A stretch of DNA of 64,000 bases from Trypanosoma brucei (lineage: Eukaryota), in the NCBI GenBank assembly GCA_000002445.1, contig CM000207.1, positions 1,824,001-1,888,000 on the forward strand, written 5' to 3'. Below are positions 2,667-53,577 of this stretch, piece by piece. The notes beneath the pieces were generated by a model. It was not told the DNA's origin and did not search any database. It worked only from the letters and a program-made list of their open reading frames with translations. A program made the translations under genes and the position numbers. Numbering within the stretch: position 1 is the stretch's first letter; every line of letters starts with the position of its first letter.

Positions 2667-4208
2667 TTGGTTATGTATCCTAGTCTTTTTAAGAAGCGAC
2701 CCCGTGATGATGATGCAAAATCAATATCGTTGAGTTTCCCCCCTGCCGTGGTGGAGCACTATCCATCAAAGCTTTCTTTTCCAGTTATTATTGACGCCAA
2801 CTTTCCCGCGCAGGAGTACTGTTCCCGCGGTGCTAGCGTGAAGAGCTCCATTCACTGGGGTCAACGGAAGCTTTTGCTTTCAGAGATTCAGCTGCTTTGC
2901 CTCTACGCACGACCAGATGTCTCATATCATATCGTATACGCCGGTTCTGCCCCTGGTACGCACTTGGCGTATCTTGACGAAATGTTTAGGGGACGACATA
3001 CATGGGAGCTTGTAGATCCGGGAAAGTTTGACCGCCCCGTGCTGGAGAAGCACCCTAACTTTACATTGCGAAATGAATTTTTTACTAATGCGACGGCATA
3101 TGGAATAAACGCTCGCCGTCTGTCGAATGTTTGCCCGGCACTCGGTGCTATTTACGAGCATGTAGCAGTTGACAGTGCAGATCCGCGTTTGAAGGACCTT
3201 CATCAAAAGTTACAAACCGTGATAGGAACGCATGACGTCGCCCGGGGGACGGAAAGCATCCCGTCTATGTATGAACCGCAGCGCCAGCTTCCTGTGGGTT
3301 TTGAGTTATTGTGCGCTGTAGCGAGGGAACGGGAACGGCCATTGTTGTTCATATCAGACATCCGTTCAGGGAGTGTGAACCTCCCGAACTTTGAGGATCA
3401 CGTGGCAGAAAACATGAAGGCACAGAAATGCTGGTGTCAGATCCTACAAGGTGAATTTAGCATGTTGAAATTCAGGTTGCCGTATACCCACAGAGGCAAA
3501 GGGGTTGGAGAGGGGAGGAAGAAGGTGCCTTCACACCTTATTGGGAAGGATGGCACCGTTACGTACCTCAAGGGAGACCTTCTACTCCCCATATGGACAC
3601 GCCCGACGAGCACTGAGGGACGTCTTGTGGTTGCTTGCGGCGCGCCGCAGGTATCGTACAATGTCCAATATGTGGAAAACCAATTCTTTTTCTTCAACGC
3701 GCACTTGCGGGAGAGGGTTCACTTCAATCATTTACTTCCACCTGATCTGGACCTCGACCATCACTACGACGCAGCTGCCGAGGTGAACTGTCTTCTTGCG
3801 TATCTGAAGTTTATTGATCCGAATTTAAGGAATGCCCCGGCCGACGTTTTGGCGCGTGAGGTGAAACGTGTTTCTTCTTCCATAACAGCGCAACTGCGGA
3901 CTACATTTCAAGACGCCATTCGGCGGAGGGATGCCCTCGTACTGAAGCACGCGCGCGGTGGGAACCTCGATGATGAAGATGGCGGTGAGAGCGACGGTGA
4001 GGAGCCTGGCGATTCTCCGCAATGCGCTGCTGATCACCAACGTCATAACAAGAACGGTTGTGCAGGCTCACCTATGGAGGAAATGGCGAAGGCTTTGATA
4101 GCAGCGGCTGCGAAGGAGAGGGCGCGGGTGTTGTGGAAGCGCAATGTGGAGGAGTCGGAGACGGATCCGCTTAGTGGGGTTTGGGTAACAACAAAAATGA
4201 AACAGTAA
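2667..4208 (+). CDS. mRNA cap-specific nucleoside 2'-O-methyltransferase, poxvirus VP39-like. Its size (513 aa, about 57 kDa) matches the T. brucei cap methyltransferase MT57 (also called TbMTr3).
   Basis: 'HWGQRKLLLSEIQLLCLYARPDVSYHIVYAGSAPGTHLAYLDEMF' aligns with vaccinia VP39 'HGQLKLLLGELFFLSKLQ...VVYIGSAPGTHIRYLRDHF' (Rossmann SAM-binding G-x-A-P-G motif). There is a downstream '...ISDIRS' (VP39 'LISDVRS') block. The acidic C-terminal extension has no VP39 counterpart. Confidence 0.8.
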   Translation: MVMYPSLFKKRPRDDDAKSISLSFPPAVVEHYPSKLSFPVIIDANFPAQEYCSRGASVKSSIHWGQRKLLLSEIQLLCLYARPDVSYHIVYAGSAPGTHLAYLDEMFRGRHTWELVDPGKFDRPVLEKHPNFTLRNEFFTNATAYGINARRLSNVCPALGAIYEHVAVDSADPRLKDLHQKLQTVIGTHDVARGTESIPSMYEPQRQLPVGFELLCAVARERERPLLFISDIRSGSVNLPNFEDHVAENMKAQKCWCQILQGEFSMLKFRLPYTHRGKGVGEGRKKVPSHLIGKDGTVTYLKGDLLLPIWTRPTSTEGRLVVACGAPQVSYNVQYVENQFFFFNAHLRERVHFNHLLPPDLDLDHHYDAAAEVNCLLAYLKFIDPNLRNAPADVLAREVKRVSSSITAQLRTTFQDAIRRRDALVLKHARGGNLDDEDGGESDGEEPGDSPQCAADHQRHNKNGCAGSPMEEMAKALIAAAAKERARVLWKRNVEESETDPLSGVWVTTKMKQ

Positions 4209-5519
4209 TCATATGATATTTTGGTGGTTTAGTTATTCCGCGTGTTAAATGTACATGTGACCGTTTGTGAGCTGCAAAGAGCAATTTCCTGCTCGTAATA
4301 CGAGCGAAGGGGAACCCACAAAAAGATAAATGGGAGGAGGAGGAGGGGCAAATTTCCCCGCAGTTTATTCCGTTAGTTTTACATGGTGTTGCCGACCGTG
4401 CTTTCATGGAGCATATTCCATTTAATTTCCCTCTTTCCTCACTGGTGTGGGTGGTTGTATCGTTTGAATTGACTTCTTCCAAAAGTGGAACTCGCGTAAA
4501 GATATTCCTATTCCCTACTTTTACTCCCTAAACGATGAGTTGTCAGTTTGGTTGATGTTGTGGGGCGTACTTGGAATGTAAGGCCTGTAATGGTAGTGGC
4601 GGTGGCGGCGGCGTTAATGCATTGGGTTGGTACCAGTTTATTTCGTGTTGTACCATTTCTTTACCGGCACTGTTCCGTGAGTGATCTCGAGCGTTTTTAC
4701 TTTGCTCAGGTTCCCCCTTTTTCCCCTTTTGCAAAAGCAAAAGATAAATAAATAGTCTGATAAACCGTTGTCTGTCATTTTCCTCCCCTCTTTTCTCGCC
4801 TGCCCTTTCCCCCGATTGCTGCTGTGGTATGCCAAAAAGCGATGTGTGCGGGAGGATGTGTATGCGTACCACTGCGTGGCAACATTTTCCGCTGCTTTCG
4901 TGCGGTTCCCCCACATCCACTGGTCAACACTGCTGCTGTTCATGAATTATTGGGCGAGCAAATGCATAACTAAACAACAAAATGTTGTTAATTAAATATG
5001 TAAATGTGTAAATAAACAAACACTTATTTATTTACGCATACATGTACATACATATGTGAGTGTGTTGGGATACTTTGTTTGTTCATTTGTCTTGTTATTT
5101 TCGTATGGAGTGAAGAGCGAGAACGAATATATAAGTAAAAAAAAAGAAGAGAGAAAACAACAAGGAATACACGCCTTAATTCCTTTTTTTGTAAAAGGCG
5201 TCTATCAGAGCAAATAACTTTAAAAGAAAACTAGGTGAAGAAGTGGAGCAAAAGGGTTTATTTTGTTGTTGGAAGGAAAGAAAGCAGCACAGATAGCGCG
5301 CGTGTGTTGGTTCCTTTTGTGTAGGAAAGCGCACTGAAGTAGGGTAGAAAGAGAAAAAGAAAACGGAAGTGAGGGTGAATAGGGTGACGCTGACACGTGC
5401 GTGTGTGTGTTGTTTGGTTGCACCAAAGTAGCTATTTAGTGGAAGAAAATCCAGTTATTTGAATTGTCATCCCTCTAATTGGGGGAAGTGGGAAATCAGG
5501 TAAGTTGCAATTAGGGAGA

Positions 5520-8507
5520 ATGGCTAGTGCCCCCCGCCTTGGTCGCAAGGGAGGGAAAATTACTGCCTCACCCATTATCCCTACGCATGCGCTTACGCCT
5601 GGAAGTTCCACGTCGCCAGTTTCGCTTCACACACCCGGTGAGGGTACCACGATTATTGGCGACCCCAACGCTGCTCATCCTTTCGGCTCCGATATGCTCA
5701 CTGTTACGAAGAAACAAACCTCCGCGGAGGCTAATGTTCTTCAATTTGACGTGGGTGCAATCCAATTACTGGGAAAGGGTGTTGTTGTTGGAAGGGCAAA
5801 ACAGGCTCGGACACGGACGTACCAACCGCAATCCGATGCTACGGAGGTAAGACAGCGGTTGCATGGAGTTTTCTCAACGCGGCGAAGCAAGGTTCCGCAT
5901 CGCGCCGCGTCTGCAGGATTGGACGCACTTCAAGAGAGCGAAGTCGTTGCCACGCGAAAGTCGCAAGATACGTTATCACTTGTGGCTGCTTTGCTGTCTG
6001 CTGATCGAATGGCGAACATTCTCGTTGTTGTCTCCAAATACTACGAGCTGAGTCACGTCAGGTCGAGTGTTGAGGCCATTTTACGAGAAGAGGGAGAAGA
6101 TACTCAAAGTGTTGGTGTACTTTTTGGGCAAACTTTCGAGGGTAGCAAATCTACTCGCGCGTGGGTGATGACCGCGGATATGGCCCTCCTCTACATGACA
6201 CAATTGGGGAGTCCCGCTCCCTTTACGCATGTAGTTGTTCCTTGTTGCGTCGACACAACCTCGTCACTATCATGCTTTCTCAAGATGCTTGGTGGGTGGA
6301 TGATGAGTAACACACCTCGCTCCCAGTCCGTGCGGCTTGTTGTCACAACGGACTGCAGCAGCGATGGTCATGTTGCTAGGACAATTGGTGTACCGAGAGT
6401 CAAGATTCTGGATGACAAAGTAATCCGCCTGCACGAATTCTCGTACAATGAGGTGTGCGCTCTACTTGGAAAGCAAACCATGGAAATGGATAAGGATGCC
6501 GCGGGGAAATTCCCCAGCCCGCCGAAGCGACTTGTTGACTACACCGCGGATGTTGCCGCTGAGCTTGTGCGTTATGTTGTTACTCACACCCCTACGGCAC
6601 AGATCTTTTCTATATTTACCGCGGATGTTCGTGAAGTACTTACCGCCCTGCAGGGGGCCAAAATTGAGGATTGCACCGTGTACTCTACGCTGAAAAGCGC
6701 TGCTGACAAGGTTGAAACGAAACATCGTGTGCACGTCATAAATCATGTGAGTCATGCCTTGGATACCGAAAATGAATTCACAATGGTGCTAGACATGGGG
6801 ACCATACGGCGTTCATCTGTACAACACAAGTCGGAGAGTTTCATAGCGGCCAGCACTACAGAATGGGAATCCAAAGCTGAGCAGGCCGAACGCAAGTCTA
6901 TTCTTGGCGAAAACACCACTTGTTGCTACTTTGCCCTCTTTCAGGATGATGTCGGTGCCTCTTTCCAAGACGAAGCCCAGTTCCTTCCGGACATATTCAA
7001 TGTGGAGAACGCCTTCGTGCAATGCGCACGACTGAACCTTTCGGTATGTGAGGTGGGTCGCTTGTTACCCTCCGTTCCACGTGATGTTGTTGATCAAGTG
7101 ATGCAGAAGGTCGCAGAAAAATGTATGATTTCGACTCCGGACAGTCTTGACATCACGTTTCTTGGTGAAATAAAGTCACGACTGCCGGTTGAGATAGACG
7201 TTGCGTATTTGATAATGGGTGGTTGCAGCCTGGGGCTCGGAGAGGCAACACTTGTGGTTAGTGCAGTGATTGCGCTGCCCTTCCGATCTACTGCACCTCC
7301 TACCTACACCGTGAACCGTTGGACTGAGGCTACTCAGGAAAGTCGGAAGAGATGTGCTGGCGATATTGCATTATCTAGTGACCTTCTCGCTGATGCGTTC
7401 GTGTTTTTGGAGTGGCTTAGGCTCCGTACTACCGGTGCAGCGACAGCTACCTTCCTTGAGGCGTTTCTTGTGCAGGAATTCAAGTTTGAAAAAATAGAAG
7501 GATTGATGAACCACATGAGAGATCAGTTGATGAACTACGCGTTTTTGGATCGCCTGGATGACGTGGACACCGTAAATAAGGTTGCAGAATCCTTGAGGGA
7601 GAATGCATCGACGATGCTCATGTTGTTGTCTATGGCTCTCTCTCGTCGTGCGGCGTTTATTCGTGATGCGGGCCACATAAACGAGAAGGATCGTCACGCC
7701 TCCATGGTATTTGTGCGTACTTCTAAGCAGCTAGTGGTTCATCCATTTATCCCTTCAGGTGCCAGATGGGAGACAGGCGGAATCGTGATCCCTGTGATTC
7801 TGAAGAACAGTACCACAATTCTGGGGGGAATGTTTTCCCTTGTGGACACTTCACTTTTCTTTGCATCTCTGCTACTACTTTACCCACAAATTGAATATTC
7901 CAGGCCGGTGACAACCGAAAGGGGCCGCGTAGTGTACTTCGGCGTTGCGTGCAACTGGCAAATGAAGCGTTTCGTTGTTTCTATTGATGATGCAACACAA
8001 ATTCTTGATTTCAGGGAGAACATCAACACAGCAATAGGGTGCATGCGGGCGCTGCGTATGCTCCCCCACCCCATTTCAAAGACTAGGTTTGCCATAGCGC
8101 TGAAGGAACACGACCGCTTCTTTGACATGGAAAGACTTCACAGAGAAACACAGCGCCGACTCCACAGTCTCGCCGCTGCTCTGAACGTACAGGAACACCA
8201 AGGTAGTTTTGAAACGTTCGCAAAGCATTACACCGCGCCGAAGGAAATAATTCCGTTCAATGATGTGGCGGCAACGGATGTATTGTTGCTTCGTCGCTTT
8301 GCCGACGGCACGCTATGGGACGAACAGCGGCCTTCGCCGCAAAGCGCACCGGCAATTGGGTCAAGTCCCCAAAAATCAGCAGTATTAACTCCCTTCGATA
8401 CCGCTATCCCTGCACCGTACGACGATGACGACGATGACGTGCAAATCATCCAAAACTCCTACTTTATGCTGCATGGACCACTCATTGAGGATGATGACGA
8501 TGATTAA
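5520..8507 (+). CDS. hypothetical protein (about 995 aa) with a poly-Asp C-terminus. The alternative ATG at 5505 is in frame.
   Basis: A long uninterrupted + ORF of non-repetitive composition. The C-terminal 'DDDDDDVQIIQNSYFMLHGPLIEDDDDD' is a hydrophobic V-x-I-I core flanked by acidic runs. Confidence 0.6.
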   Translation: MASAPRLGRKGGKITASPIIPTHALTPGSSTSPVSLHTPGEGTTIIGDPNAAHPFGSDMLTVTKKQTSAEANVLQFDVGAIQLLGKGVVVGRAKQARTRTYQPQSDATEVRQRLHGVFSTRRSKVPHRAASAGLDALQESEVVATRKSQDTLSLVAALLSADRMANILVVVSKYYELSHVRSSVEAILREEGEDTQSVGVLFGQTFEGSKSTRAWVMTADMALLYMTQLGSPAPFTHVVVPCCVDTTSSLSCFLKMLGGWMMSNTPRSQSVRLVVTTDCSSDGHVARTIGVPRVKILDDKVIRLHEFSYNEVCALLGKQTMEMDKDAAGKFPSPPKRLVDYTADVAAELVRYVVTHTPTAQIFSIFTADVREVLTALQGAKIEDCTVYSTLKSAADKVETKHRVHVINHVSHALDTENEFTMVLDMGTIRRSSVQHKSESFIAASTTEWESKAEQAERKSILGENTTCCYFALFQDDVGASFQDEAQFLPDIFNVENAFVQCARLNLSVCEVGRLLPSVPRDVVDQVMQKVAEKCMISTPDSLDITFLGEIKSRLPVEIDVAYLIMGGCSLGLGEATLVVSAVIALPFRSTAPPTYTVNRWTEATQESRKRCAGDIALSSDLLADAFVFLEWLRLRTTGAATATFLEAFLVQEFKFEKIEGLMNHMRDQLMNYAFLDRLDDVDTVNKVAESLRENASTMLMLLSMALSRRAAFIRDAGHINEKDRHASMVFVRTSKQLVVHPFIPSGARWETGGIVIPVILKNSTTILGGMFSLVDTSLFFASLLLLYPQIEYSRPVTTERGRVVYFGVACNWQMKRFVVSIDDATQILDFRENINTAIGCMRALRMLPHPISKTRFAIALKEHDRFFDMERLHRETQRRLHSLAAALNVQEHQGSFETFAKHYTAPKEIIPFNDVAATDVLLLRRFADGTLWDEQRPSPQSAPAIGSSPQKSAVLTPFDTAIPAPYDDDDDDVQIIQNSYFMLHGPLIEDDDDD

Positions 8508-11034: not shown

Positions 11035-14000
11035 ATGTCGAACGAGTACACGACGGCTGCAAGATTGCAACAACATCATCTTTCATCGGGTAGCGCCAAC
11101 ATGGACATGTGTGTTTACTCGAAATTGTTGGAGGGGTCCTCGACAATTCTGCAGGCAATCAACGCATTAACGCCACTGGCCCCGAAGGCAGCAAACATTG
11201 TTGAACGCGAGATCGTAAATTTTATGCGTGCGGCGACGCCCGAGCACCGCGTTCGATGTATATCGCAAATAACGGGTGCGCTTCGTGAACCAGCATTCTA
11301 CAATCAGCGTCATAAGAGGGGGTGTGCCACCTTTCTGCATAAACTTGCGGTACATTTTGTGTTTCCGCTTCTGTTGCACTCTTCCGTGCGGTATCTTCAC
11401 CGAGCCCTTGCCACCCTTGTCCGCACGGTGTACGTCGTGAGTGAGGATCTTGAGTTGTGTTTTCAAGAGGCATTTGTTACCGCGCACATAAAGCCTTGGT
11501 TTCGCGACGGGTGCCGCCCTAGTTTGTTGCAGCATCTTGACTCCACCGAACTGTCCCTGTTGAAGGATCCCATTATGAACTGGGTAAACTGCATAGATGG
11601 CACAATGTGTGTTGCCGTTCCGCTCTTTCCAGCAGTGTTTGCTAACACATTTTTCGACGTTGTTCCGCTTCTGGGCGACAGCCTGCAGTGGATGGTAGAC
11701 AATGCCTGCGCTGGATGTTCCCAGTCAGAATGTGGGAAAGGCAACAGCGGCATGCTTCTGGGCGAAGATTTGTCGTATGTCCGCTATGGCATCCGTGTTG
11801 TAACGACATATGTTCATAAATTTCTTCATCTTCTAGGTGATGTCCTGCATGAAGGGGAGGAACAAAAGATGGCTGAGGTGCAGGAGGATATATGCAAACT
11901 TTTCTCTTCTTCCTTGAGGATGCTTTCATCGGCAGTATTTCCAAAAGATGTTCTTAACGGTGCTGGACTCCTTGTATCCTCGCTTTTGACAATCCGCACG
12001 TGCGACGCATCGTTTTTACTTGAGATCTGTCGCTACTGCGGCGCCAGTGAAGTCCGTAAGGAGTCGAACTTCACTTCGGTTGCTGACGACGATGGTTGTA
12101 GCAAACGATGGACGGAAGAGTACGTTAGGGAGTTTGTGCAACTTGTGTGTTCCAGTGACCCTCAGCATGAGATATTGCAACGCTCCTTTTCACGAGACTC
12201 GTTGCGCCGAATATTCTATTCGTTCACTGCAAATGGTCGTTTCGCCTTGATGAAGGGTTTACTTGCGCATTTATCGACCCCTCTGCGCGGTAACATTGGT
12301 TCTGTTGGTGTGCTGCTGAAACCTGTTGTCCCTTTATTGGACAATCTCAGTTCCTATGCCGCCAGTGGGCGGCCCTTGGTTGCGGTGTACGACGTCATAA
12401 TTCCAGCTGCTATTTCTTATTGCTCCGCCCTCCATGTCCCAGACACGCGCTTCATGGCCATTCAAACTATAGATTCTGTTGTTCGACACCTTTCTTCTGT
12501 GTTTACATGCATTGCTGACCTACTCGAAACCACGCTTGAAGAAAGCGTCGTCGAAGGCACGACGCGTGTAGTGAAGAGGGGCGTGCAGCGTGCTGGCGGA
12601 GTTGGGTTACTGACTGAAACTGATCGCAAGGCACTAAGCGCACTGTGCGCAAATACTTCTGGACTTATGCGAGCGCTAAGCGAAGCAACAGAGGTAATCA
12701 TGGGGATGTGGGACGACAGTACACAGCATGTGGCCGGGCCGCTATATGGAGCATACAGCGAAATACTTGCTGTCCATTCCTCTGTTAGACGTTGCAACAC
12801 CCTTTTGTCGCAAGGTTCTGGTGCACCAAACCAGGAAGTCGATGCACTGGATGTTGCGGAGACCCTACATGTAATTCTGCCAATACCCAATGAAAGGAGA
12901 GGTAAGTACCACGCACTTTTGGCCCTTCTTGACGTTGTGCAGGTACCTCAGTTTCTCTTGGAGCTGCGTCAACATCGTGCTAAATGCAGCAAAGAAGGCG
13001 CTGCTGATTATTGTTCTGCAGTGACGCCCGATGATGTTTCAGAAGTTGATGCGCTCTGCGAATTCAGCAGAATGCTTCTTGGTGGCGCAATAAATCCCAA
13101 GGTAGGGAGCGCTGCTGGTGAAGTTTTTGCGAAAACGGCCAATTATATTCGTCTTTCGAGCGGTACTGAAACAGAAACTGAAAAACTGTTTTTTGGGGGT
13201 GTCATTGAGCCGTTGTTAAAGTCAATTGTGGTTCCCGGATATTGTGCACCTTTGCACGTCGAAGATGCGACACGTATCTCAAACATTGTGACACACATGA
13301 TCTCTCCGTGTCTGAAACGTGACGAGTCATACCTCCCAACCCTGTTGTCGCGTTTAGCAACGATGGTCGAAAGCGGGGATTGCTATTTCCGGCTGGGTCA
13401 AAGTATTGTTGAAATTTTACACCGTGCTCGTGTTGCTGGCAGGGATGTGAGCACTTATATTCATCCCAGAAGTCGCCTTTTCAAGGTTGTCCTCTCGAGT
13501 CTACAATCACATTCAAGCGAACTTCGTTATACCGCATTGGGTCTGTGCGTGCTCACCATGAAGAAGGCCGAGCCTGTGCATTACTGGCAGTGTCGCCTCA
13601 TGGAATGGTACATTAGTACTAATATGCACTCGGGAGGTGATTCGGCGGCCATGCGAAACCTTTTAGAAGTATACAAAAAATGGGCTCAGCGGCTGGTTGA
13701 CAGTTGTGCGAGCAAGTGCAGCAATCGTCGCAGGAAGGCAGAAGGGAACGAAACGAGCGATCAGTATAGAGATCTTGTCACCAAACACTTCGTTCGAACC
13801 GTGTCGTACATTGCACCGCACATTGGTGAGTCTGTAGAGTGGTGCCGCAATCTTTCGCTTGAACGACGCGTGACAGCGATGATGATATACTCATGCCTCC
13901 TCCGAAACTCCACTGAGGTTTTCACAGATACACAACTTCACGAACTTCAGGAGCAGTTACTTCCCGAAACCCTTGTCGAAGGTTTGCTAGAGTGTCTGTC

Positions 14001-17000
14001 ATCAGGTTGGGTGAAAGCACGCGAGTGTGCGTTTGGCATCCTTCAAACGTATTGCAAGTATGCTGCCAGCGCTGTATTTTCTGAGCGCCGCTTGGGTAAC
14101 CCGGTGGCGGCTAGTGATGCGAAGGCAGGGCTTTCCCATGCTCGCACGTACAAAAAGGCGGAAGGTGAGGTGTTGCGATATGTATTGGCCACATATTTCA
14201 CACCCGCTGCTAGGAAAGCGGCATCCGAGGACCCACAAAGAGAGTGCAAACGGCGGCTGGAATTAGTAAAACTCGAGATTGCTGCACTTCACGGCAAATT
14301 TGTCGGACTATGCCAATTGGGTACTAAGAAGGCATACCAACTTGTCAAACTTCATCCATTTCACGGTTCTCTTTCGCTTTGTGCAGCATTGCTATCAAAT
14401 GTCAAGGAGGTATGTACCACTGCTGACGGACTGCAAGAGTCGTGTAACCAGATGCTTCTGTGCTGCAATCAGGCTCTACAGAATTGTTCCCTACTTGTTG
14501 GGGGGGAGGCCAGCGGCTCTGCAAATGAAGGTGATGTGGACGTGGACTGTCGCGGGCACGCATTCGACAAAGGGAACCCTTGCGAGGAGGCGAGTATGCG
14601 TGCAGTTGTGAACAACACATGGCTCTGTATCCGCACAGCCGCCGCCGCAGTTGAGCGTGTCGTGGCTCTTGTCAGCATTGACAGTCTCGACTTCAAGGTT
14701 GTTCGTGGGGTGTGTTACGTGCTCGTGGAGTCTCTCCTTCGGACTAAGCACAATGGTGTGATGCGTGCGGTGCGTGGAGCACTGAAAACGATTGCTGCTG
14801 CTCTTCTTCGCTCGCGGGATGTAACCTGCCATACTCTCCCTTCTGAGATTCTGGAGTTTCTGTTGGGACCAGATGGCGTCACCTCCGTAAGTGTAGCGCG
14901 CATGCTGCGGCGCAGCCAAGGGTTGCCACATGCCCTGCTTGCTGTGCTTGAGGCGGAAGACATAGGCGTTCCTGCTACCCTCTTTCCCCAAGCTATGAAG
15001 AGGCTTCTTCATGTGGCAACCAATGCACATAGCAACGAGGGCGGCCCAGATTTGTGCCCCCCAAACGGTAATGATGAGCGGCGGACGCCCGAAGCTGATG
15101 GGGAGATTCGTCGTAGCCAGCGTTCAAACGCTCTGAACGTTTTGAAGTTTATATTTGAAAACAAATCATTTGCATCGCGCTCCGTGTCACACCTTGAAGA
15201 TGCATTTTGGATAGCGGCGTCCGGGTTCGATGATCCCAGTTGGGGCATACGGAACAGCTCACTGATGCTCTTTTCAGCTGTACTTCCCCGTTTCGTTGGC
15301 GAGCATCCCTCTACCGGTGGTGTAGGAGTGAACACCTCTCTCCACGACATTGCTATTCGTGCTCCCCGCGCAGTGGCCTTTGCGTACGAGGAGTTGGTTA
15401 AGAGCTTCACGAACCCCTCACCGAGCTTGGGAGTGTTTCCACTTCTGCAGATGCTTTCTATGCTAGCTCCCGATCCCCCCCATGTTATCACAAAGGCAAC
15501 TACGGTAAACCTGGAGGGAGAGGAACAAGAGCAACCTGACTCACAGCGCATCGTGAATGCAGTGGTACGCTGTGGTTCTTCAAGGAATCTCATGATTCGT
15601 GCTGCCTGCAGTGTCGCACTGACATCGCTTGTGCCACCGACTAACCTTGAGGGATTGTTTGCAGAGTTTTGTTCAGCGCTATCTGCATCACGAACCGCAG
15701 CGAACGCCTTACACGGCGTGTTGCTGCACCTTCAGCAGTTTCATACTTTCTACGTTGGAACGCTTCGTCGTCACGTGAAACCAAGGGCACTGAGCAGCAG
15801 TGTGACACCCACTGTGCAACTGCTTGTTAGCCGCCTTACTGTAGAGGGCCTTACTATTTCTCAGGGGAATTCTGCGCAGGAACCGGTGCTGTCACGGGCT
15901 TGTGTCCGCTGTCCAACAATAGCCGCCACCTTCTTTAGTGTCGCATCTGATGCACTATACCATGCAACAGTTGGTATGAAGGGCATTGAAAAAAAAGATA
16001 TCACCGATTCCGTCCGGTCGCTGGTGAACATTGGTGTTTCGACGCTACACTCTATACTGTGTACCGCCACCCCGCTGTACAGCCTTTCGCGCGCCTACCA
16101 TGCGGCTGTTGTGGAAAATATCACCCTTTTTGCACTGCTCGCTGTGCATTATCTGTCGGATATCACCACCCATCATGGAACACATGACGCATTATGGGTT
16201 GCGTTGCGCGATGTTTTCGCTTGCGATGCGAGCAAAATAATCATGTCTCATACCATGAACCACATAAGCTACCTAATGTCGAAGAATTGGTGGTCGAGTG
16301 AGATATCGGTTGGCGTTGTGAAGCAATTTGCTGTACGTATGAAGTGCGATCTTGTACACGCGGCTTTAACGATGTTGCGGGAGAGCCTTGGCGACGACAG
16401 ACATGTGAAAGGTCTGTCGTGCTTGGAGCTGTTACGTATGCAGTCTCAGTTGGAGTTTGTTGTTACCATGAGTAAGGAGGGGCTCATGTGTCTAGAGGCG
16501 CACAGTGAATTATTTGACGCAGTAGAGGACCTACTTCTACGGCGCATGGACCCCAGTGCTAAGCATTTTCTGCGCAATGCAGATGTGCATAGTTGGGCTA
16601 TTCGCTTTCTTGGTCTCCGTTGTACTTGTCATATGCCACACAACAAAGCCGTCTTGGAGATCATTACACATTACTGTCTTCCCACAGTGAATGTACAGAC
16701 GCGATTAGCGGTAGTGGATTCACTGAATGATAGTTTCTTGGCGGGTGTCGTAACAAGCCCCGCTGCCGCCGCTACTACTTCTACATTTACTAAGCAGCGA
16801 TCTGTTTACCTCCTTGTTTTGCTTCAGCTCCTGTTCGACGACGCCTATGATGTGCGCACTGCTGCTTGCCGTGTCGTCTCACGTCTCGTATTGGCGGCGG
16901 CTTTGCCACTTGACCACACAAGTTGTGTGATCGCTCTCGTGTCGCTTCTTCGCTCGTATTGTTCCACTGGGGAGTTGTCACCGGTGATGGTAAAGCAACA

Positions 17001-17295
17001 TCTTCTAAAGAATACGGAATGCTGTCTTTCCGGCTCTGCAAATAAGGATACGTGTGGTGACGATGATGATGAAGGGAGTGATGAAGAAGGCGTGCTCTTC
17101 GAAAAGGAGGCGGATAACATGTTTGCCGAGGGTTCGTTGCTTGCCTTTCTTGCAACCGTAATTACACGGGAGGGGGCTGACTGCGTGCCGGTTTTTTCGG
17201 TGTACACTGAACTAGTGAACGTTTCGGAACGGTGCGGTAACCCGGCGGTCATGTACGGTGCGCTGCTGGATGAGCCGTCGCCATGTGGCGCCTGA
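11035..17295 (+). CDS. giant (2086 aa) alpha-helical HEAT/ARM-repeat-like protein. It is possibly THADA-like, but the family is not confirmed.
   Basis: A 6.3-kb uninterrupted ORF, Leu/Ala-rich with periodic helical-repeat character throughout. It has an acidic tail (GDDDDEGSDEEG). All antisense ORFs within it are short. Confidence 0.7.
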   Translation: MSNEYTTAARLQQHHLSSGSANMDMCVYSKLLEGSSTILQAINALTPLAPKAANIVEREIVNFMRAATPEHRVRCISQITGALREPAFYNQRHKRGCATFLHKLAVHFVFPLLLHSSVRYLHRALATLVRTVYVVSEDLELCFQEAFVTAHIKPWFRDGCRPSLLQHLDSTELSLLKDPIMNWVNCIDGTMCVAVPLFPAVFANTFFDVVPLLGDSLQWMVDNACAGCSQSECGKGNSGMLLGEDLSYVRYGIRVVTTYVHKFLHLLGDVLHEGEEQKMAEVQEDICKLFSSSLRMLSSAVFPKDVLNGAGLLVSSLLTIRTCDASFLLEICRYCGASEVRKESNFTSVADDDGCSKRWTEEYVREFVQLVCSSDPQHEILQRSFSRDSLRRIFYSFTANGRFALMKGLLAHLSTPLRGNIGSVGVLLKPVVPLLDNLSSYAASGRPLVAVYDVIIPAAISYCSALHVPDTRFMAIQTIDSVVRHLSSVFTCIADLLETTLEESVVEGTTRVVKRGVQRAGGVGLLTETDRKALSALCANTSGLMRALSEATEVIMGMWDDSTQHVAGPLYGAYSEILAVHSSVRRCNTLLSQGSGAPNQEVDALDVAETLHVILPIPNERRGKYHALLALLDVVQVPQFLLELRQHRAKCSKEGAADYCSAVTPDDVSEVDALCEFSRMLLGGAINPKVGSAAGEVFAKTANYIRLSSGTETETEKLFFGGVIEPLLKSIVVPGYCAPLHVEDATRISNIVTHMISPCLKRDESYLPTLLSRLATMVESGDCYFRLGQSIVEILHRARVAGRDVSTYIHPRSRLFKVVLSSLQSHSSELRYTALGLCVLTMKKAEPVHYWQCRLMEWYISTNMHSGGDSAAMRNLLEVYKKWAQRLVDSCASKCSNRRRKAEGNETSDQYRDLVTKHFVRTVSYIAPHIGESVEWCRNLSLERRVTAMMIYSCLLRNSTEVFTDTQLHELQEQLLPETLVEGLLECLSSGWVKARECAFGILQTYCKYAASAVFSERRLGNPVAASDAKAGLSHARTYKKAEGEVLRYVLATYFTPAARKAASEDPQRECKRRLELVKLEIAALHGKFVGLCQLGTKKAYQLVKLHPFHGSLSLCAALLSNVKEVCTTADGLQESCNQMLLCCNQALQNCSLLVGGEASGSANEGDVDVDCRGHAFDKGNPCEEASMRAVVNNTWLCIRTAAAAVERVVALVSIDSLDFKVVRGVCYVLVESLLRTKHNGVMRAVRGALKTIAAALLRSRDVTCHTLPSEILEFLLGPDGVTSVSVARMLRRSQGLPHALLAVLEAEDIGVPATLFPQAMKRLLHVATNAHSNEGGPDLCPPNGNDERRTPEADGEIRRSQRSNALNVLKFIFENKSFASRSVSHLEDAFWIAASGFDDPSWGIRNSSLMLFSAVLPRFVGEHPSTGGVGVNTSLHDIAIRAPRAVAFAYEELVKSFTNPSPSLGVFPLLQMLSMLAPDPPHVITKATTVNLEGEEQEQPDSQRIVNAVVRCGSSRNLMIRAACSVALTSLVPPTNLEGLFAEFCSALSASRTAANALHGVLLHLQQFHTFYVGTLRRHVKPRALSSSVTPTVQLLVSRLTVEGLTISQGNSAQEPVLSRACVRCPTIAATFFSVASDALYHATVGMKGIEKKDITDSVRSLVNIGVSTLHSILCTATPLYSLSRAYHAAVVENITLFALLAVHYLSDITTHHGTHDALWVALRDVFACDASKIIMSHTMNHISYLMSKNWWSSEISVGVVKQFAVRMKCDLVHAALTMLRESLGDDRHVKGLSCLELLRMQSQLEFVVTMSKEGLMCLEAHSELFDAVEDLLLRRMDPSAKHFLRNADVHSWAIRFLGLRCTCHMPHNKAVLEIITHYCLPTVNVQTRLAVVDSLNDSFLAGVVTSPAAAATTSTFTKQRSVYLLVLLQLLFDDAYDVRTAACRVVSRLVLAAALPLDHTSCVIALVSLLRSYCSTGELSPVMVKQHLLKNTECCLSGSANKDTCGDDDDEGSDEEGVLFEKEADNMFAEGSLLAFLATVITREGADCVPVFSVYTELVNVSERCGNPAVMYGALLDEPSPCGA

Positions 17296-17691: not shown

Positions 17692-18987
17692 GTGGGTTTG
17701 GGGGAAGACATATCAAGTCTGAATTGGCAAATGTCTGTTTCTAGTCAAATAGGCATAAGGCGACACGCCTTGTTGCCCTTTATCGGGAGTGTTGCAAGCC
17801 GCCGTAGCTTTCGAGGATGCCAATGGACTCATCACAGTTGCCGCTTCATGTCGTCCTGCAACCCTCTTCGTGGGTCCTTCAAATATCGTCACAACAGAAC
17901 ACTCCCTGAAGATGCAGTTAATCCATTAACGACCCCAACAAACGTCGACGCGGGAGTTCTTCACGTTGTTTCCGTGCCTATTGGTAACTTGAAAGACTTT
18001 TCTATTCGTGCACTTGATGTACTTCGACAAGTGGATTACATTGTAACGACGGACCGCCCTGCAACAAAGACACTCCTTGACCTTGTTCAAATTGAGTCCC
18101 AGGGCCGCTTAATTCATTATTCCCGTAGCAATCGCACGACAACGAAGGAGAAACTAGTTGAGCTCCTGTTGGGGGGCAGGAGAATGGCATTGGTGTGTAC
18201 GAGCGGAACACCATGCGTGGGTGATGTAGGCGGTGAACTGGTGCGGGAGATGCAGGCTGAAGGTGTTCGTGTCGCGGCGGTACCCGGGTCATGCGCTCTG
18301 ACATGTGCATTGGCTGTTGCTGGTGTCACAACTTCCCTTCACGAGGTTAGTGCGACTGCAGACACGAATCGGGCATGTGCTGCCAAGCGGCCGAGGATTG
18401 GCTCTCTCCGTGACGGTTCTTTTTACTTTGGAAATGTGCTTCCGGAATCTCATGGTGAGCGGTTGCGGGTCCTTCGGACGGCTGTAGGAGAGGCAACTCA
18501 CCCATGTGTTTTTTATGAGGTTCCCCGGCGTCTTTTGTCGGTTTTACAGGACATCGCACTCGTCCTTCCCAAACGACGCGTCGTACTAACACATGAACTG
18601 ACAAAGGTAAATGAATCTATACATGCAGATGTTGCAGAAAAGCTACTGTCTTTTTATTCGCGACAGGAGGCGAATATGCTGCTTAAGAAGGGGCAACTTG
18701 TCCTGATCATCGATGGGCCGGATGAAAACGAAATGCGGGAACGCTTAGAATGCGAAGCCCTAAAACGACAGCGACTGCGGAGGAGTTTTGCGTCGTTAAC
18801 CGGACGCTGTGGTAACATGGAGGAGAAAAATACTCACGATGTGGGGAAGACTAAAAGAATGAGGTTGTGCCGTCGGTCCTTATTGCGCAAGAAGCGGCGT
18901 GAGGCGCTTATTTCAAGAATAGAAAAAGAACAAGAGAGAATACGAATGACAATGTTGATTAACCGTACGGACGCAACAAGAGATTAA
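17692..18987 (+). CDS. RsmI-like tetrapyrrole (corrin/porphyrin) methylase-fold protein. It is a putative rRNA 2'-O-methyltransferase, likely organellar. Its C-terminal extension is basic.
   Basis: 'VVSVPIGNLKDFSIRALDVLRQVDYIVTTDRPATKTLLDLV...MALVCTSGTPCVGDVGGELVREMQAEGVRVAAVPGSCALTCALAVAG' parallels bacterial RsmI 'YIVPTPIGNLADIT.RAL.VL..VD.IAAEDTR....LL......ALVSDAGTP.I.DPG..LV......GI.V..LPG..A...AL..AG'. The N-terminus is R/S-rich (IGIRRHALLPFIGSVASRRSFRG), suggesting a mitochondrial presequence. The start Met is uncertain (17692, 17731 or later). Confidence 0.75.
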   Translation: MGLGEDISSLNWQMSVSSQIGIRRHALLPFIGSVASRRSFRGCQWTHHSCRFMSSCNPLRGSFKYRHNRTLPEDAVNPLTTPTNVDAGVLHVVSVPIGNLKDFSIRALDVLRQVDYIVTTDRPATKTLLDLVQIESQGRLIHYSRSNRTTTKEKLVELLLGGRRMALVCTSGTPCVGDVGGELVREMQAEGVRVAAVPGSCALTCALAVAGVTTSLHEVSATADTNRACAAKRPRIGSLRDGSFYFGNVLPESHGERLRVLRTAVGEATHPCVFYEVPRRLLSVLQDIALVLPKRRVVLTHELTKVNESIHADVAEKLLSFYSRQEANMLLKKGQLVLIIDGPDENEMRERLECEALKRQRLRRSFASLTGRCGNMEEKNTHDVGKTKRMRLCRRSLLRKKRREALISRIEKEQERIRMTMLINRTDATRD

Positions 18988-19077: not shown

Positions 19078-19481
19078 ATGCCCCGTTTCCTCGTCTTTGC
19101 TTTCACATTGTAACTATATATATGTATGAGCTGTTAACAAGGGGCCAGCTACATATTATTGTTTCACGTCAGTGTACGTGATTGTCCTTCATTTTTTTCT
19201 CGAGTGTTTCGTACCTCGTTTCACTTACTTGAACACATAAAAAGAATAATGCACATCAAGACTCCCCGCTTTGTATGTCATTCGTATTTTGAAAAAAAAA
19301 AGGAGAAAAGAACATAACCCTACACAAAGATTAAAGATAAGTTTTTATACATATATTTACTACCACATAAATTGTTGATATAATTACGAAGTGGCCTGTG
19401 GTGCAAACAACAGGAAACACCTGTGGAAAGGCATAAAAATAACTGTTGTTACTTTCAGGAAGGGGAAAAAGACGGAAGATC

Positions 19482-20921
19482 ATGTCAATGGATGTCGGTG
19501 TTGTCGGCCTCGGGGTGATGGGCGCGAACCTGGCCTTGAACATTGCGGAGAAAGGGTTTAAAGTTGCTGTGTTCAACCGTACGTACTCTAAGAGCGAGGA
19601 ATTCATGAAAGCGAATGCCTCTGCTCCATTTGCGGGTAATTTGAAGGCGTTTGAAACTATGGAGGCATTTGCAGCGTCACTCAAGAAACCTCGAAAGGCC
19701 CTCATCCTGGTGCAGGCGGGCGCGGCTACGGACTCAACAATTGAACAACTTAAGAAAGTGTTTGAGAAGGGAGATATCCTCGTTGATACCGGTAACGCGC
19801 ATTTTAAGGATCAGGGACGCCGCGCCCAGCAGCTGGAGGCGGCAGGTCTCCGGTTTCTTGGGATGGGCATATCCGGGGGCGAGGAGGGTGCACGCAAAGG
19901 GCCAGCCTTTTTCCCTGGAGGGACGCTTAGTGTGTGGGAGGAAATACGACCAATTGTTGAGGCCGCCGCAGCTAAGGCAGATGATGGCCGGCCCTGTGTG
20001 ACGATGAACGGCAGCGGCGGCGCGGGATCATGCGTGAAGATGTACCACAATTCGGGTGAATACGCCATTTTGCAAATTTGGGGTGAGGTTTTTGACATCC
20101 TTCGGGCAATGGGACTGAACAACGATGAAGTTGCTGCCGTTCTTGAAGATTGGAAATCAAAGAACTTCTTGAAGTCTTATATGCTCGATATCTCAATTGC
20201 AGCCGCGCGGGCAAAGGATAAGGATGGAAGTTATCTTACGGAGCACGTGATGGATCGTATTGGATCGAAGGGCACCGGCTTATGGTCCGCCCAAGAGGCT
20301 CTCGAGATTGGAGTCCCTGCGCCCAGTTTGAACATGGCTGTCGTATCGCGGCAGTTCACAATGTATAAAACTGAGCGTCAAGCGAATGCCAGCAATGCAC
20401 CCGGTATTACTCAATCCCCTGGATACACTCTCAAAAACAAAAGCCCCAGTGGGCCCGAAATTAAGCAGCTCTACGACTCTGTGTGCATTGCCATTATCTC
20501 ATGCTACGCTCAAATGTTTCAGTGCCTGCGTGAGATGGACAAGGTGCATAACTTCGGACTCAATCTTCCAGCTACCATTGCAACTTTCCGCGCCGGTTGC
20601 ATTTTGCAGGGCTACCTTTTAAAACCCATGACTGAGGCATTCGAAAAGAATCCCAACATTAGCAATCTCATGTGTGCATTCCAAACCGAGATCAGGGCAG
20701 GACTACAGAATTACCGCGATATGGTGGCACTTATCACATCAAAGTTGGAAGTGTCCATTCCTGTGCTGTCGGCCTCCCTCAATTACGTTACTGCGATGTT
20801 TACGCCAACACTCAAGTATGGGCAACTTGTGTCGTTGCAGCGGGATGTGTTCGGTCGGCACGGCTACGAAAGGGTGGATAAAGACGGCCGCGAATCATTC
20901 CAATGGCCTGAGTTGCAATAA
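19482..20921 (+). CDS. GND: 6-phosphogluconate dehydrogenase, decarboxylating (479 aa)
   Basis: MSMDVGVVGLGVMGANLALNIAEKG carries the NADP-binding G-x-G-x-x-G Rossmann motif. There is full-length collinearity with the 6PGDH family. The sequence matches the T. brucei 6PGDH N-terminus recalled from memory. The tracked ORF begins 12 codons earlier at 19446, but MSMDV is the conserved start. Confidence 0.95.
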   Translation: MSMDVGVVGLGVMGANLALNIAEKGFKVAVFNRTYSKSEEFMKANASAPFAGNLKAFETMEAFAASLKKPRKALILVQAGAATDSTIEQLKKVFEKGDILVDTGNAHFKDQGRRAQQLEAAGLRFLGMGISGGEEGARKGPAFFPGGTLSVWEEIRPIVEAAAAKADDGRPCVTMNGSGGAGSCVKMYHNSGEYAILQIWGEVFDILRAMGLNNDEVAAVLEDWKSKNFLKSYMLDISIAAARAKDKDGSYLTEHVMDRIGSKGTGLWSAQEALEIGVPAPSLNMAVVSRQFTMYKTERQANASNAPGITQSPGYTLKNKSPSGPEIKQLYDSVCIAIISCYAQMFQCLREMDKVHNFGLNLPATIATFRAGCILQGYLLKPMTEAFEKNPNISNLMCAFQTEIRAGLQNYRDMVALITSKLEVSIPVLSASLNYVTAMFTPTLKYGQLVSLQRDVFGRHGYERVDKDGRESFQWPELQ

Positions 20922-27279: not shown

Positions 27280-28221
<942 letters not shown>

Positions 28222-31200: not shown

Positions 31201-31755
31201 AAAAAAAATCATGTAGAATGAACAACACGGAGGTTAATTGAAAAAGAAAAATAAATGGAAACGGAAAAAGAAAGAAAACGAATGTTAATGATTGTAAATA
31301 TGATTAAAGGCAGAAACAGATGGAGAAGAGAGGAAAGAAAAGAAATGAGAAAAGAAAAGAAGAAAGAAATGAAGGAAAGAATAGAAGGAAAGAATAAGTG
31401 TATTATGTGTTGGATAAGAGGATTTTTAGAGAAGGAAGATGAAAGGATTAAGTTTTTGTTTTGGTTTGTTTTGTTTTGTATATGTGTGTTAAACAATTGA
31501 ACGGGGAAAGCGAGGGATGTGAGTACGCTGACAAATTGACGAAATTGTTTCTTTTTCTTTTTCTTTTTTTGTTTACCTTTTTTTTTTTGCAGTTTCCTCT
31601 TTGTTGCAACAGTACCCCATCTCCCCAATACATTAGCGTACACAATCTGTCACCCCACAAATGAGGAGATTTGCATTATTTGAAGGGGTTTGCCTTCTCA
31701 TGCTCTTCCCTTTCATTTTGTTTGTTCCTTTCTTTTGCTTGTCTTTTCTTATTAT

Positions 31756-31791
31756 TGTGTGTATGTGTGTATGTGTGTGTGTGTGTGTGTT
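31756..31791. repeat. (GT)n microsatellite
   Basis: The run reads gtgtgtatgtgtgtatgtgtgtgtgtgtgtgtgt. Confidence 0.9.
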
Positions 31792-32711
31792 TTGTTTGCT
31801 TCCGTCCCGTCTGTTGGTTTCTGCATTTTTGCGGTATATAAATATATAAGTAAATATATCTAAAAATATACGTGATGTTGGTGATGGTGATGGTAGTGAT
31901 AATGACTCTTGTTTTCATGCACGTGCGCATGCCTGTGTATATGTTTGCCTGAGCGCACTGAAGAAAAAAATAAGGAAGGGTGAAACTACAAGAAAAAAAA
32001 AGATTGAAAAAGGAAAAAAAAAGAATGGAAATAGCAGGTATTATTTCCTCTTTTCTTTTCACTCCATTTATCATCTTGTTCTTAGTTTCACATGCTACTC
32101 CTTTTCTACATATAATGACTACGGTAACCGCGGTGGTGAAAACAACTGCTTGCTTTAATGAGTCAACAACTATGCCAATTTTCATCACAAAGGTATCAGA
32201 TAGAAATGATGAAGAGGATATTGTGGAATCTCCTTGCGTTTCCGCACTGCATTATGTGTTTATCACGATAACATGTCTGTTTGCGTTTCTTCTTTTTTTT
32301 TTTTCCTTTTCATTACTCCTCACTTCCCTCATTCGTTCCTTCTACATATATTTGTTCTTCACTTTTTCACTGTATTTGTCCTCATCGTTCACGAAGAGAA
32401 GAAAAGAAAAAAAAACAACAACAAGTATCCTCACTGCTGTACTCCCCTCTTTCCTCCGTCTATGCGATGCACAAGAAAAAGAATAAAGGATGTGTAACAT
32501 TAATAATGTTACACACTAAGTTATTCTCCTTCGTGCGCAGTATACCTTGTGATACCACTTGAGGTATATCTTGATATCTTTCTTCTTTCTTTTCTTTTCC
32601 TTTTCGTTGTGTTGTGATCTTTTGGTGCTTAACCGATTCTTATCGTAGGGGAAAGGCAGCGATAGTCAAACAGCAGAGAACTAAGAAGGAAGAAAAAAAA
32701 AGAGCAACAAA

Positions 32712-53300: not shown

Positions 53301-53528
53301 ACAATAGCAAAACACGCCCGCACAAAGTGCAAAGGAGGACGTTCAATACATTATTTTTGGTCACTGGGACTGGAAAATTGGATAAAGGAGGCTGAATCAG
53401 AGGACTTGCAGCGCGACTCCACCAAAAAATAAAAATTAAAAAAAATTAAAAAAAAATCAACACGCATACATTATAAAGCAAATCAAACAGGAAAAAAGTT
53501 TTTTAAAAAAAAAACAAAGCAAAGCGAA

Positions 53529-53530
<2 letters not shown>

Positions 53531-53569
<39 letters not shown>

Positions 53570-53577
53570 CACAAACT
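53531..53577. repeat. (TA)n microsatellite, about 23 units
   Basis: An uninterrupted 'atatat...' run inside the long A-rich intergenic region. Confidence 0.95.

What the first reader, a model, noticed from the sequence alone, without database searches (positions are those of the whole stretch)
2667..4208. Poxvirus VP39-like cap 2'-O-methyltransferase with a unique acidic C-terminal extension
The N-terminal two-thirds aligns block-by-block with vaccinia VP39, including the G-S-A-P-G-T-H SAM-binding loop. This fold is otherwise restricted to poxviruses and kinetoplastids, where it builds the hypermethylated cap 4 on the spliced leader. The C-terminal about 130 aa (DDEDGGESDGEEPGDSPQ...) has no VP39 counterpart and could mediate protein interactions.
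Basis: partly seen in the sequence, partly recalled or inferred. Interest (0 to 1): 0.55.

Follow-up and report, generated by a model that had tools for sequence, protein, structure and literature searches.

The report
Known trypanosome cap-4 methyltransferase TbMTr3
This ORF is the already-characterised Trypanosoma brucei cap 2'-O-methyltransferase TbMTr3 (MT57, Tb927.9.12040), a VP39-like enzyme, and its acidic C-terminal stretch is a disordered loop shared in composition with the trypanosomatid and bodonid orthologues examined, not a unique feature.

Summary
The ORF is real. Its eukaryotic start is the ATG at 2673, giving 511 aa, not the TTG at 2667. The protein is identical, residue for residue, to T. 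brucei TREU927 XP_827457.1. That protein is TbMTr3 / MT57 / MT511 (Tb927.9.12040), the published cap 3/cap 4 ribose 2'-O-methyltransferase of the spliced leader.

The VP39 relationship holds on every test:
- Pfam PF01358, E 7.6e-14.
- The K-D-K-E tetrad maps to K66/D229/K266/E315, invariant in the 48 aligned family members.
- The cap-stacking residues map to Y49/Y271/E335.

- The fold is not restricted to poxviruses and kinetoplastids. It is common in giant viruses and is reported in several protists.
- The C-terminal extension is not unique. It is a conserved MTr3-clade module: a helix at 412-427, then a helix and tail at 467-511, marked by F412/R483/W488.
- In trypanosomatids and bodonids a disordered, sequence-variable acidic loop (431-466) interrupts this module. 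Deep-branching orthologues have about one residue there.

An 81-aa internal insert (140-220) is also clade-specific. Verdict: already known and ordinary. The role of the C-terminal module is not addressed in the papers I could read.

The parts
2673..4208 (+). Coding sequence of TbMTr3 / MT57 / MT511 (Tb927.9.12040): 511 codons plus a TAA stop
   Evidence: ORF; ATG at 2673; stop. The sequence is identical to XP_827457.1 / EAN77127.1 of T. brucei brucei TREU927. The gene-name equivalence comes from PMC8311971 Table 2.
2691..2705 (+). N-terminal basic motif K7-K8-R9-P10-R11, a likely nuclear localisation signal (inferred)
   Evidence: R11 is invariant and K8/R9 nearly invariant in 20 orthologues. 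The enzyme is reported to be nucleoplasmic (PMC5750579). The NLS role itself is inference.
2754..3896 (+). VP39-like Rossmann-fold cap 2'-O-methyltransferase core (about aa 28-408, including the insert)
2868..2870 (+). Catalytic K66, equivalent to VP39 K41, within HWGQRKLLL
   Evidence: Aligned and invariant in all 48 sequences. Also aligned.
2943..2963 (+). SAM-binding loop G91-S-A-P-G-T-H97, equivalent to VP39 G68-SAPGTH
   Evidence: Translation; alignments. G91, A93, P94 and H97 are invariant in 81 sequences.
3090..3332 (+). MTr3-clade internal insert (aa 140-220): three or four helices plus the conserved DVARGTE.IPSMYE motif. It is absent from VP39.
   Evidence: This region is 81 aa here against 11 aa in VP39 and 8-14 aa in MTr2-like and viral relatives. 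Helices H139-153, H155-167, H171-181 and H208-219 are in the model. Dix et al. 2022 describe extra loops above the substrate site.
3357..3359 (+). Catalytic D229, equivalent to VP39 D138, within FISDIRS
   Evidence: Invariant in all 48 sequences. Aligned.
3468..3470 (+). Catalytic K266, equivalent to VP39 K175, within MLKFRLPY. Y271 (equivalent to VP39 F180, cap stacking) follows.
   Evidence: Invariant in all 48 sequences. The F180 column holds Y, W or F in every sequence.
3615..3617 (+). Catalytic E315, equivalent to VP39 E207, within PTSTEGRL
   Evidence: Invariant in all 48 sequences in the family alignment that includes VP39 and in 81 sequences. hhalign put this segment out of register, so the assignment rests and on the published superposition.
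3897..3962 (+). First half of the MTr3-specific C-terminal module (aa 409-430, helix 412-427)
   Evidence: Helix H412-427 is in the model, where the 10-residue pLDDT blocks spanning aa 401-430 average 96, 94 and 88. F412 and R419 are invariant in 20 orthologues. The clade signature is shown.
3963..4070 (+). Disordered acidic loop (aa 431-466): 10 D/E against 2 K/R, with a CK2-like S440 in ESDGEE
   Evidence: Translation. pLDDT is below 50 for 434-452, with 10-residue block means of 44-50 across 431-460. Mean identity is 0.21. Loop length is 13-67 aa with net charge -1 to -11 in 18 of the 19 orthologues, and 2 aa in prokinetoplastid P0064. Deep-branching members have about 1 aa. The phosphorylation idea is inference only.
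4071..4205 (+). Second half of the C-terminal module (aa 467-511): helix 467-483, a short helix 486-489, and the tail ...SGVWVTTKMKQ
   Evidence: The pLDDT block means are about 91-96 over most of this segment, and the overall pTM is 0.90. R483 and W488 are invariant in 20 orthologues and present in at least 90% of 81 sequences. The signature is retained in Perkinsela and prokinetoplastid homologues.

Best explanation
Window 2673-4208 (+) encodes TbMTr3 (MT57/MT511, Tb927.9.12040) of Trypanosoma brucei. It is a nucleoplasmic, S-adenosylmethionine-dependent, m7G-cap-dependent ribose 2'-O-methyltransferase of the VP39 (PF01358) family. The proposed mechanism, inferred from VP39 structures and residue conservation, has three parts. 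The m7G cap of the spliced-leader RNA is sandwiched between Y49 and Y271 and read by E335. SAM is held by the GSAPGTH loop and D115. The K66-D229-K266-E315 tetrad activates the 2'-OH of a cap-proximal nucleotide for methyl transfer. Published genetics show that loss of the enzyme leaves cap 2 and removes ribose methylation at positions 3 and 4, so it makes cap 3 and is needed for, and probably makes, cap 4. Compared with VP39, the protein carries an 81-aa helical insert (aa 140-220) and a conserved C-terminal module (aa 409-430 plus 467-511). My inference is that these two elements reshape the RNA path so that nucleotide 3 or 4, rather than nucleotide 1, reaches the active site. The acidic stretch (aa 431-466) is a disordered surface loop inserted into that module in trypanosomatids and bodonids. 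It is most likely a tolerated low-complexity expansion, at most a regulatory or phospho-acceptor segment, and is not part of the catalytic machinery.
Against: Direct in vitro cap 3 or cap 4 methyltransferase activity of recombinant TbMTr3 has not been shown. Only SAM binding and a preference for m7G-capped RNA are reported (PMC13393146). Whether it methylates position 4 itself is 'likely but not proven'. Dix et al. argue that the register of these enzymes may be looser than the names suggest. My assignment of register control to the insert and C-terminal module is inference. I had no model coordinates and could not see where these elements sit relative to the RNA groove. The two original 2006 papers on the gene (PMC1370885, PMC1489268) were not available to read.
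Confidence: 0.95

Rival explanations
1. The acidic C-terminal stretch is a dedicated protein-interaction or regulatory module. It might be a CK2-phosphorylated docking site for SL RNP or capping factors, or an RNA-mimicking autoinhibitory tail.
For: Net negative charge is kept in 18 of the 19 orthologues despite sequence drift. Within the genus Trypanosoma a short E-E-x-G-D-E-S-D-x-E core, with a CK2-type serine, is conserved. Disordered acidic segments often act this way; that is general knowledge, not tested here.
Against: It is the least conserved segment, with mean identity 0.21 against 0.74-0.78 in the core. The model is disordered here, with pLDDT below 50 for 434-452. Length varies from 13 to 67 aa and drops to about 1-2 aa in prokinetoplastids, Neobodo, Perkinsela and other deep-branching members, which keep the flanking helices. 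The serine is absent in Leishmaniinae.
Confidence: 0.2
2. The protein is a catalytically inert cap-binding or scaffold protein that is merely required for another enzyme to methylate positions 3 and 4.
For: No in vitro methyltransferase activity has been demonstrated for TbMTr3, only SAM and capped-RNA binding.
Against: The SAM loop and the full K-D-K-E tetrad are invariant across the 81-sequence family alignment, which includes homologues of only about 30% identity by the local alignments, such as the Perkinsela protein. Such conservation is not expected of a pseudo-enzyme. The paralogue TbMTr2 and a medusavirus homologue are active in vitro. No other candidate cap 3/4 ribose methyltransferase is listed for T. 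brucei.
Confidence: 0.04
3. It is a poly(A) polymerase regulatory (processivity) subunit, as the Pfam family name and several database annotations say.
For: The Pfam family is named 'PARP_regulatory', and the NCBI name for the T. b. equiperdum protein is 'poly A polymerase regulatory subunit'.
Against: The name reflects the second function of vaccinia VP39 with its partner VP55. The published trypanosome phenotypes concern cap methylation only. This is annotation transfer by family name.
Confidence: 0.01

Closest known systems
TbMTr3 / TbMT57 / TbMT511 (Tb927.9.12040, formerly Tb09.211.3130), T. brucei cap 3/cap 4 ribose 2'-O-methyltransferase
   Same: It is the same protein: 511 of 511 residues identical to XP_827457.1.
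   Different: Nothing differs.
Vaccinia virus VP39 (cap 1 2'-O-methyltransferase and poly(A) polymerase processivity factor; PDB 1vp3, 1av6)
   Different: Identity is only about 18-22%. TbMTr3 has an 81-aa insert after the fourth core strand and a C-terminal module of about 100 aa. VP39 instead ends in a short basic disordered tail. The target is position 3 (and 4) of the spliced leader rather than position 1. No poly(A) polymerase role is known.
TbMTr2 / TbCom1 / MT48 (Tb927.11.4890), T. brucei cap 2 methyltransferase
   Same: It is a VP39-family paralogue in the same pathway. It is nucleoplasmic and m7G-cap dependent.
   Different: It is 417 aa long, methylates position 2 and is active in vitro. 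In my alignment, MTr2-like and viral relatives lack the long insert and the F412/R483/W488 C-terminal signature. I did not align the T. brucei MTr2 sequence itself.
Medusavirus Cap3MTase (YP_010801901.1)
   Same: It is a VP39-family enzyme with the K-D-K-E and Y-Y-E motifs, and it methylates position 3.
   Different: It is viral and 50.3 kDa. Its in vitro cap 3 activity has been demonstrated, which is still lacking for TbMTr3. I could not test whether it shares the MTr3 insert and tail.

Membership tests
VP39-like cap-specific mRNA (nucleoside-2'-O-)-methyltransferase (Pfam PF01358) | Profile match above the curated Pfam threshold | tested here: met
   51.8 bits against a cut-off of 25.4, E 7.6e-14.
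VP39-like cap-specific mRNA (nucleoside-2'-O-)-methyltransferase (Pfam PF01358) | Rossmann-fold methyltransferase core with VP39-type N- and C-terminal wrap | tested here: met
VP39-like cap-specific mRNA (nucleoside-2'-O-)-methyltransferase (Pfam PF01358) | K-D-K-E catalytic tetrad (VP39 K41, D138, K175, E207) | tested here: met
   K66, D229, K266 and E315 each align to the VP39 residue and are invariant in 48 of 48 sequences. A published superposition places them within 1.5 A.
VP39-like cap-specific mRNA (nucleoside-2'-O-)-methyltransferase (Pfam PF01358) | SAM-binding glycine loop and acidic residue (VP39 G68-SAPGTH, D95) | tested here: met
   G91-SAPGTH97 and D115.
VP39-like cap-specific mRNA (nucleoside-2'-O-)-methyltransferase (Pfam PF01358) | m7G pocket: two stacking aromatics plus Glu (VP39 Y22, F180, E233) | tested here: met
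   Y49, Y271 and E335. The 'Y-Y-E motif' is reported as conserved in TbMTr3.
VP39-like cap-specific mRNA (nucleoside-2'-O-)-methyltransferase (Pfam PF01358) | Cap-dependent 2'-O-methyl transfer demonstrated biochemically | not testable with these tools
   The literature reports SAM binding, a preference for m7G-capped RNA and a genetic requirement, but no in vitro activity for TbMTr3.
Kinetoplastid MTr3 / MT57 orthogroup (KEGG K18777) | Orthology to Tb927.9.12040 | tested here: met
   Identical to XP_827457.1. The nearest homologues are single-copy trypanosomatid proteins at 52-69% identity in the orthologue alignment, aligned over 95-100% of the query.
Kinetoplastid MTr3 / MT57 orthogroup (KEGG K18777) | Clade-specific architecture: a long insert after the SAM half, plus a C-terminal two-helix module with F412/R483/W488 (a diagnostic proposed here, not an established definition) | tested here: met
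   Both elements are present in every full-length MTr3-clade sequence sampled. The long insert is absent from VP39 and from every MTr2-like or viral sequence sampled, and none of those carries the full F412/R483/W488 signature.
Kinetoplastid MTr3 / MT57 orthogroup (KEGG K18777) | Required for ribose methylation at spliced-leader positions 3 and 4 in vivo | not testable with these tools
   This comes from the literature only: knockout and RNAi cells accumulate cap 2.
Poxvirus poly(A) polymerase regulatory subunit (the second function of VP39) | Heterodimerises with a VP55-type poly(A) polymerase and confers processivity | not tested
   I did not search for a VP55 homologue, and no such role is reported in the papers I read. 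The database name is family-name transfer.

The most novel reading that the evidence does not exclude
The 81-aa insert and the split C-terminal module are inherited together throughout the MTr3 clade and are missing from cap 1 and cap 2 relatives. Together they may form the structural 'ruler' that moves the methylation register from nucleotide 1 to nucleotides 3 and 4. They might also recognise the spliced-leader RNP. Under this reading, the trypanosomatid acidic loop could act as a phospho-regulated or RNA-mimicking lid on that ruler. None of the papers I could read describes the C-terminal module.
Probability: 0.25. Interest if true: 0.4.

Novelty: already known. Interest (0 to 1): 0.1.

Why it matters
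The gene was identified and knocked out in 2006 and has been reviewed repeatedly, so the finding adds nothing new about what the gene is. It remains a good example of a virus-type cap enzyme recruited for the hypermethylated trypanosome cap 4. Two questions are still open: its in vitro activity, and whether it methylates position 4 itself. The one modestly useful by-product here is a clearer anatomy of the parts VP39 lacks. These are a clade-wide internal insert and a conserved C-terminal module, split in trypanosomatids and bodonids by a disordered acidic loop that deep-branching orthologues lack. That anatomy tells anyone designing constructs for biochemistry or crystallography which segment can probably be deleted (aa 431-466) and which probably cannot (aa 409-430 and 467-511).

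Tried and rejected
(1) The two primary papers (PMC1370885, Arhin 2006; PMC1489268, Zamudio 2006) are not held. Their content is cited only through later papers.

(2) A literature search for 'TbMT511/TbMT417/MT511' returned only unrelated accession numbers.

(3) The AFDB50 fold library was unavailable. The distribution of the fold therefore rests on BFVD, the hit list and Werner et al. 2011.

(4) hhalign of the orthologue profile against VP39 aligned K41, D138 and K175 correctly. It put the E207 segment out of register, placing E207 opposite G301. I rejected that local register in favour of the 48-sequence MAFFT alignment, where E207 pairs with the invariant E315. This agrees with the strand order of the model and with the published superposition.

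(5) Model coordinates are not exposed to the script sandbox. I could not measure tetrad geometry or see where the insert and C-terminal tail pack.

(6) I considered that the ORF might be TbMTr2/MT48. I rejected this on length (511 against 417 aa), the exact identity to Tb927.9.12040 and the K18777 labels.

(7) At E up to 1, the full-length protein gives no second Pfam domain that could explain the C-terminal module.

Full report
**Observation.** The window has an uninterrupted + strand ORF at 2667-4208. The tool used bacterial start rules and so began it at a TTG. The sequence reads ...gcgTTGgttATGtat..., so the first ATG is at 2673, and the stop is TAA at 4206-4208. The eukaryotic product is 511 aa. 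Upstream lie long polypyrimidine tracts. All 20 ORFs of at least 200 aa in the 64 kb window are on the + strand, which is the pattern of a trypanosomatid polycistronic unit.

**Identity.** An exact-sequence look-up finds this 511-aa protein in T. brucei brucei TREU927 as XP_827457.1 / EAN77127.1 / Q38DJ3. Its 90%-identity cluster also holds the T. b. gambiense, T. b. equiperdum and T. equiperdum proteins.
- A review table equates MTr3 = MT57 = MT511 = Tb927.9.12040, the cap 3 (and probably cap 4) ribose 2'-O-methyltransferase (PMC8311971).
- Hall and Ho describe the same locus under its old name, Tb09.211.3130, as the 57-kDa VP39-like protein.
- Homologues carry the KEGG label 'K18777 MTR3, MT57; cap3/cap4 methyltransferase'.
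- The neighbours are ordinary housekeeping genes: a CDC50 fragment, THADA/Trm732, a diphthine-synthase-like methylase, 6-phosphogluconate dehydrogenase, a mitochondrial carrier, a TRAPP subunit, CFAP410, Pex19, an RFC subunit and a Cys/Met PLP-dependent enzyme.

**The VP39 relationship.** Sequence and fold evidence agree.
- Pfam PF01358 scores 51.8 bits (cut-off 25.4), E 7.6e-14.
- VP39 chains are the only significant PDB sequence hits: E about 3e-6 with the single sequence and 2.7e-9 with an orthologue profile.
- hhalign gives 97.3% probability over 216 columns.
- An AlphaFold2 model built from 81 homologues has mean pLDDT 89.1 and pTM 0.90.
- Foldseek places 21 VP39 chains first, at E about 1e-14 and TM 0.79 normalised to VP39.

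**Catalytic and ligand-binding residues.** I checked that the VP39 sequence I supplied is the PDB one. I then aligned it with TbMTr3 and 46 family members.

| VP39 residue | TbMTr3 residue | Role | Conservation in the 48 sequences |
|---|---|---|---|
| K41 | K66 | catalytic tetrad | invariant |
| D138 | D229 | catalytic tetrad | invariant |
| K175 | K266 | catalytic tetrad | invariant |
| E207 | E315 | catalytic tetrad | invariant |
| Y22 | Y49 | cap pocket | Y in 46 of 48 |
| F180 | Y271 | cap pocket | always Y, W or F |
| E233 | E335 | cap pocket | E in 42 of 48 |
| G68 | G91 | SAM binding | invariant |
| D95 | D115 | SAM binding | invariant |

hhalign placed the E207 segment out of register. 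I prefer the family alignment, which fits the strand order of the model. It also fits the published statement that the tetrads of VP39, TbMTr2 and TbMTr3 superpose within 1.5 A (PMC9479742).

**What VP39 lacks.** The VP39-equivalent core runs to about aa 408, because VP39's last helix aligns with helix 390-408. Two additions stand out.
- **Internal insert.** An 81-aa helical insert (aa 140-220) contains the nearly invariant motif DVARGTE.IPSMYE. The same region is 11 aa in VP39 and 8-14 aa in MTr2-like and viral relatives, but 50-103 aa in every full-length MTr3-clade sequence.
- **C-terminal module.** It consists of helix 412-427, then helix 467-483, a short helix 486-489 and the tail ...SGVWVTTKMKQ. 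The 10-residue pLDDT blocks over most of this module average about 88-96. F412, R419, R483 and W488 are invariant in 20 orthologues, and F412, R483 and W488 are present in at least 90% of 81 sequences. Perkinsela and prokinetoplastid homologues also carry F412/R419/R483/W488.
- **Acidic loop.** The acidic stretch (aa 431-466) sits between the two halves of this module. It is predicted disordered, with pLDDT below 50 for 434-452. It has the lowest conservation of any segment, with mean identity 0.21. It is 13-67 aa long with net charge -1 to -11 in 18 of the 19 orthologues, and 2 aa in prokinetoplastid P0064. In prokinetoplastids, Neobodo, Perkinsela and other deep-branching members it shrinks to about one residue.

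The extension is therefore a family trait and not unique. Its acidic part is a lineage-specific loop expansion and not the conserved functional element.

**Distribution of the fold.** The claim that it is restricted to poxviruses and kinetoplastids is wrong.
- BFVD matches at E 1e-20 to 1e-13 include Mimivirus-, Pithovirus-, Tupanvirus-, Orpheovirus- and Hyperionvirus-type proteins, with weaker (about 1e-7 to 1e-6) matches to cedratvirus proteins.
- The sequence search finds PF01358 proteins in Euglena transcripts and in many metagenomic contigs, some fused to a second methyltransferase domain.
- Werner et al. 2011 list TbMTr2-branch members in Naegleria, Paramecium, Perkinsus and Monosiga.
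- A medusavirus homologue was shown in 2026 to be a cap 3 methyltransferase.

**Mechanism.**
- *Shown by others:* loss of the gene leaves cap 2 and removes ribose methylation at positions 3 and 4. Translation falls. Loss is not tolerated in combination with loss of MTr1. The protein is nucleoplasmic. The recombinant protein binds SAM and prefers m7G-capped RNA, but no in vitro methyl transfer has been shown.
- *Shown here:* all catalytic, SAM-binding and cap-binding residues are conserved within a VP39 fold.
- *Inferred:* the enzyme uses the VP39-type mechanism, in which the tetrad activates the 2'-OH while the cap is clamped by Y49 and Y271. The conserved N-terminal KKRPR motif is the nuclear localisation signal. 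The insert and C-terminal module set the register to nucleotides 3 and 4. The acidic loop is dispensable or, at most, regulatory.

**Verdict.** Interest is low. The only residual novelty is the undescribed role of the conserved C-terminal module.

Noticed in passing
window 1-64000: All 20 ORFs of at least 200 aa lie on the + strand, with pyrimidine-rich intergenic regions. The window is one polycistronic transcription unit of T. brucei chromosome 9. Its genes include a CDC50 fragment (23-358), a diphthine-synthase-like methylase (17692-18987), 6PGDH (19446-20921), a mitochondrial carrier, a TRAPP subunit, CFAP410, Pex19, an RFC subunit, a Cys/Met PLP-dependent enzyme, an EF-hand protein and a histidine phosphatase.
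   Followed up: partly
window 11035-17295 (+): A 2086-aa THADA/Trm732 homologue (DUF2428 at E 1.5e-36, plus the Trm732 C-terminal TPR) lies two genes downstream of the cap 2'-O-methyltransferase. In yeast, Trm732 is a partner of the tRNA 2'-O-methyltransferase Trm7. The proximity is probably coincidental in a polycistronic genome.
   Followed up: no
window 5505-8507 (+): The 1000-aa ORF immediately downstream of TbMTr3 has no Pfam match and ends in aspartate runs (...PYDDDDDDVQ...IEDDDDD). It is a conserved-hypothetical type of protein.
   Followed up: no
window 38861-41458 (+): This 865-aa ORF gives only a sub-threshold Pox_A3L match (20.4 bits against a cut-off of 25, E 5e-4). The match is most likely chance and should not be read as a second poxvirus-like gene.
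   Followed up: no
window 28001-32000 and 52001-54000: GC content drops to 0.32-0.36 against about 0.46-0.49 elsewhere. These are long AT-rich stretches with few or short ORFs.
   Followed up: no
proteins P0099, P0115, P0116, P0117 (hits): These 570-705-aa metagenomic proteins fuse a class-I SAM methyltransferase domain (PF13847/PF08241 type) to a PF01358 VP39-like domain. They sit on contigs of up to 117 kb. They may be two-step cap-modifying fusion enzymes of giant viruses or protists.
   Followed up: no
protein P0101 (hit): A 328-aa PF01358 protein is labelled 'MAG: Nitrososphaerota archaeon'. A VP39-type cap enzyme in an archaeon is implausible, so the contig is probably viral or eukaryotic and was mis-binned.
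   Followed up: no
It comes from applying bacterial start rules to a eukaryotic gene.
   Followed up: yes
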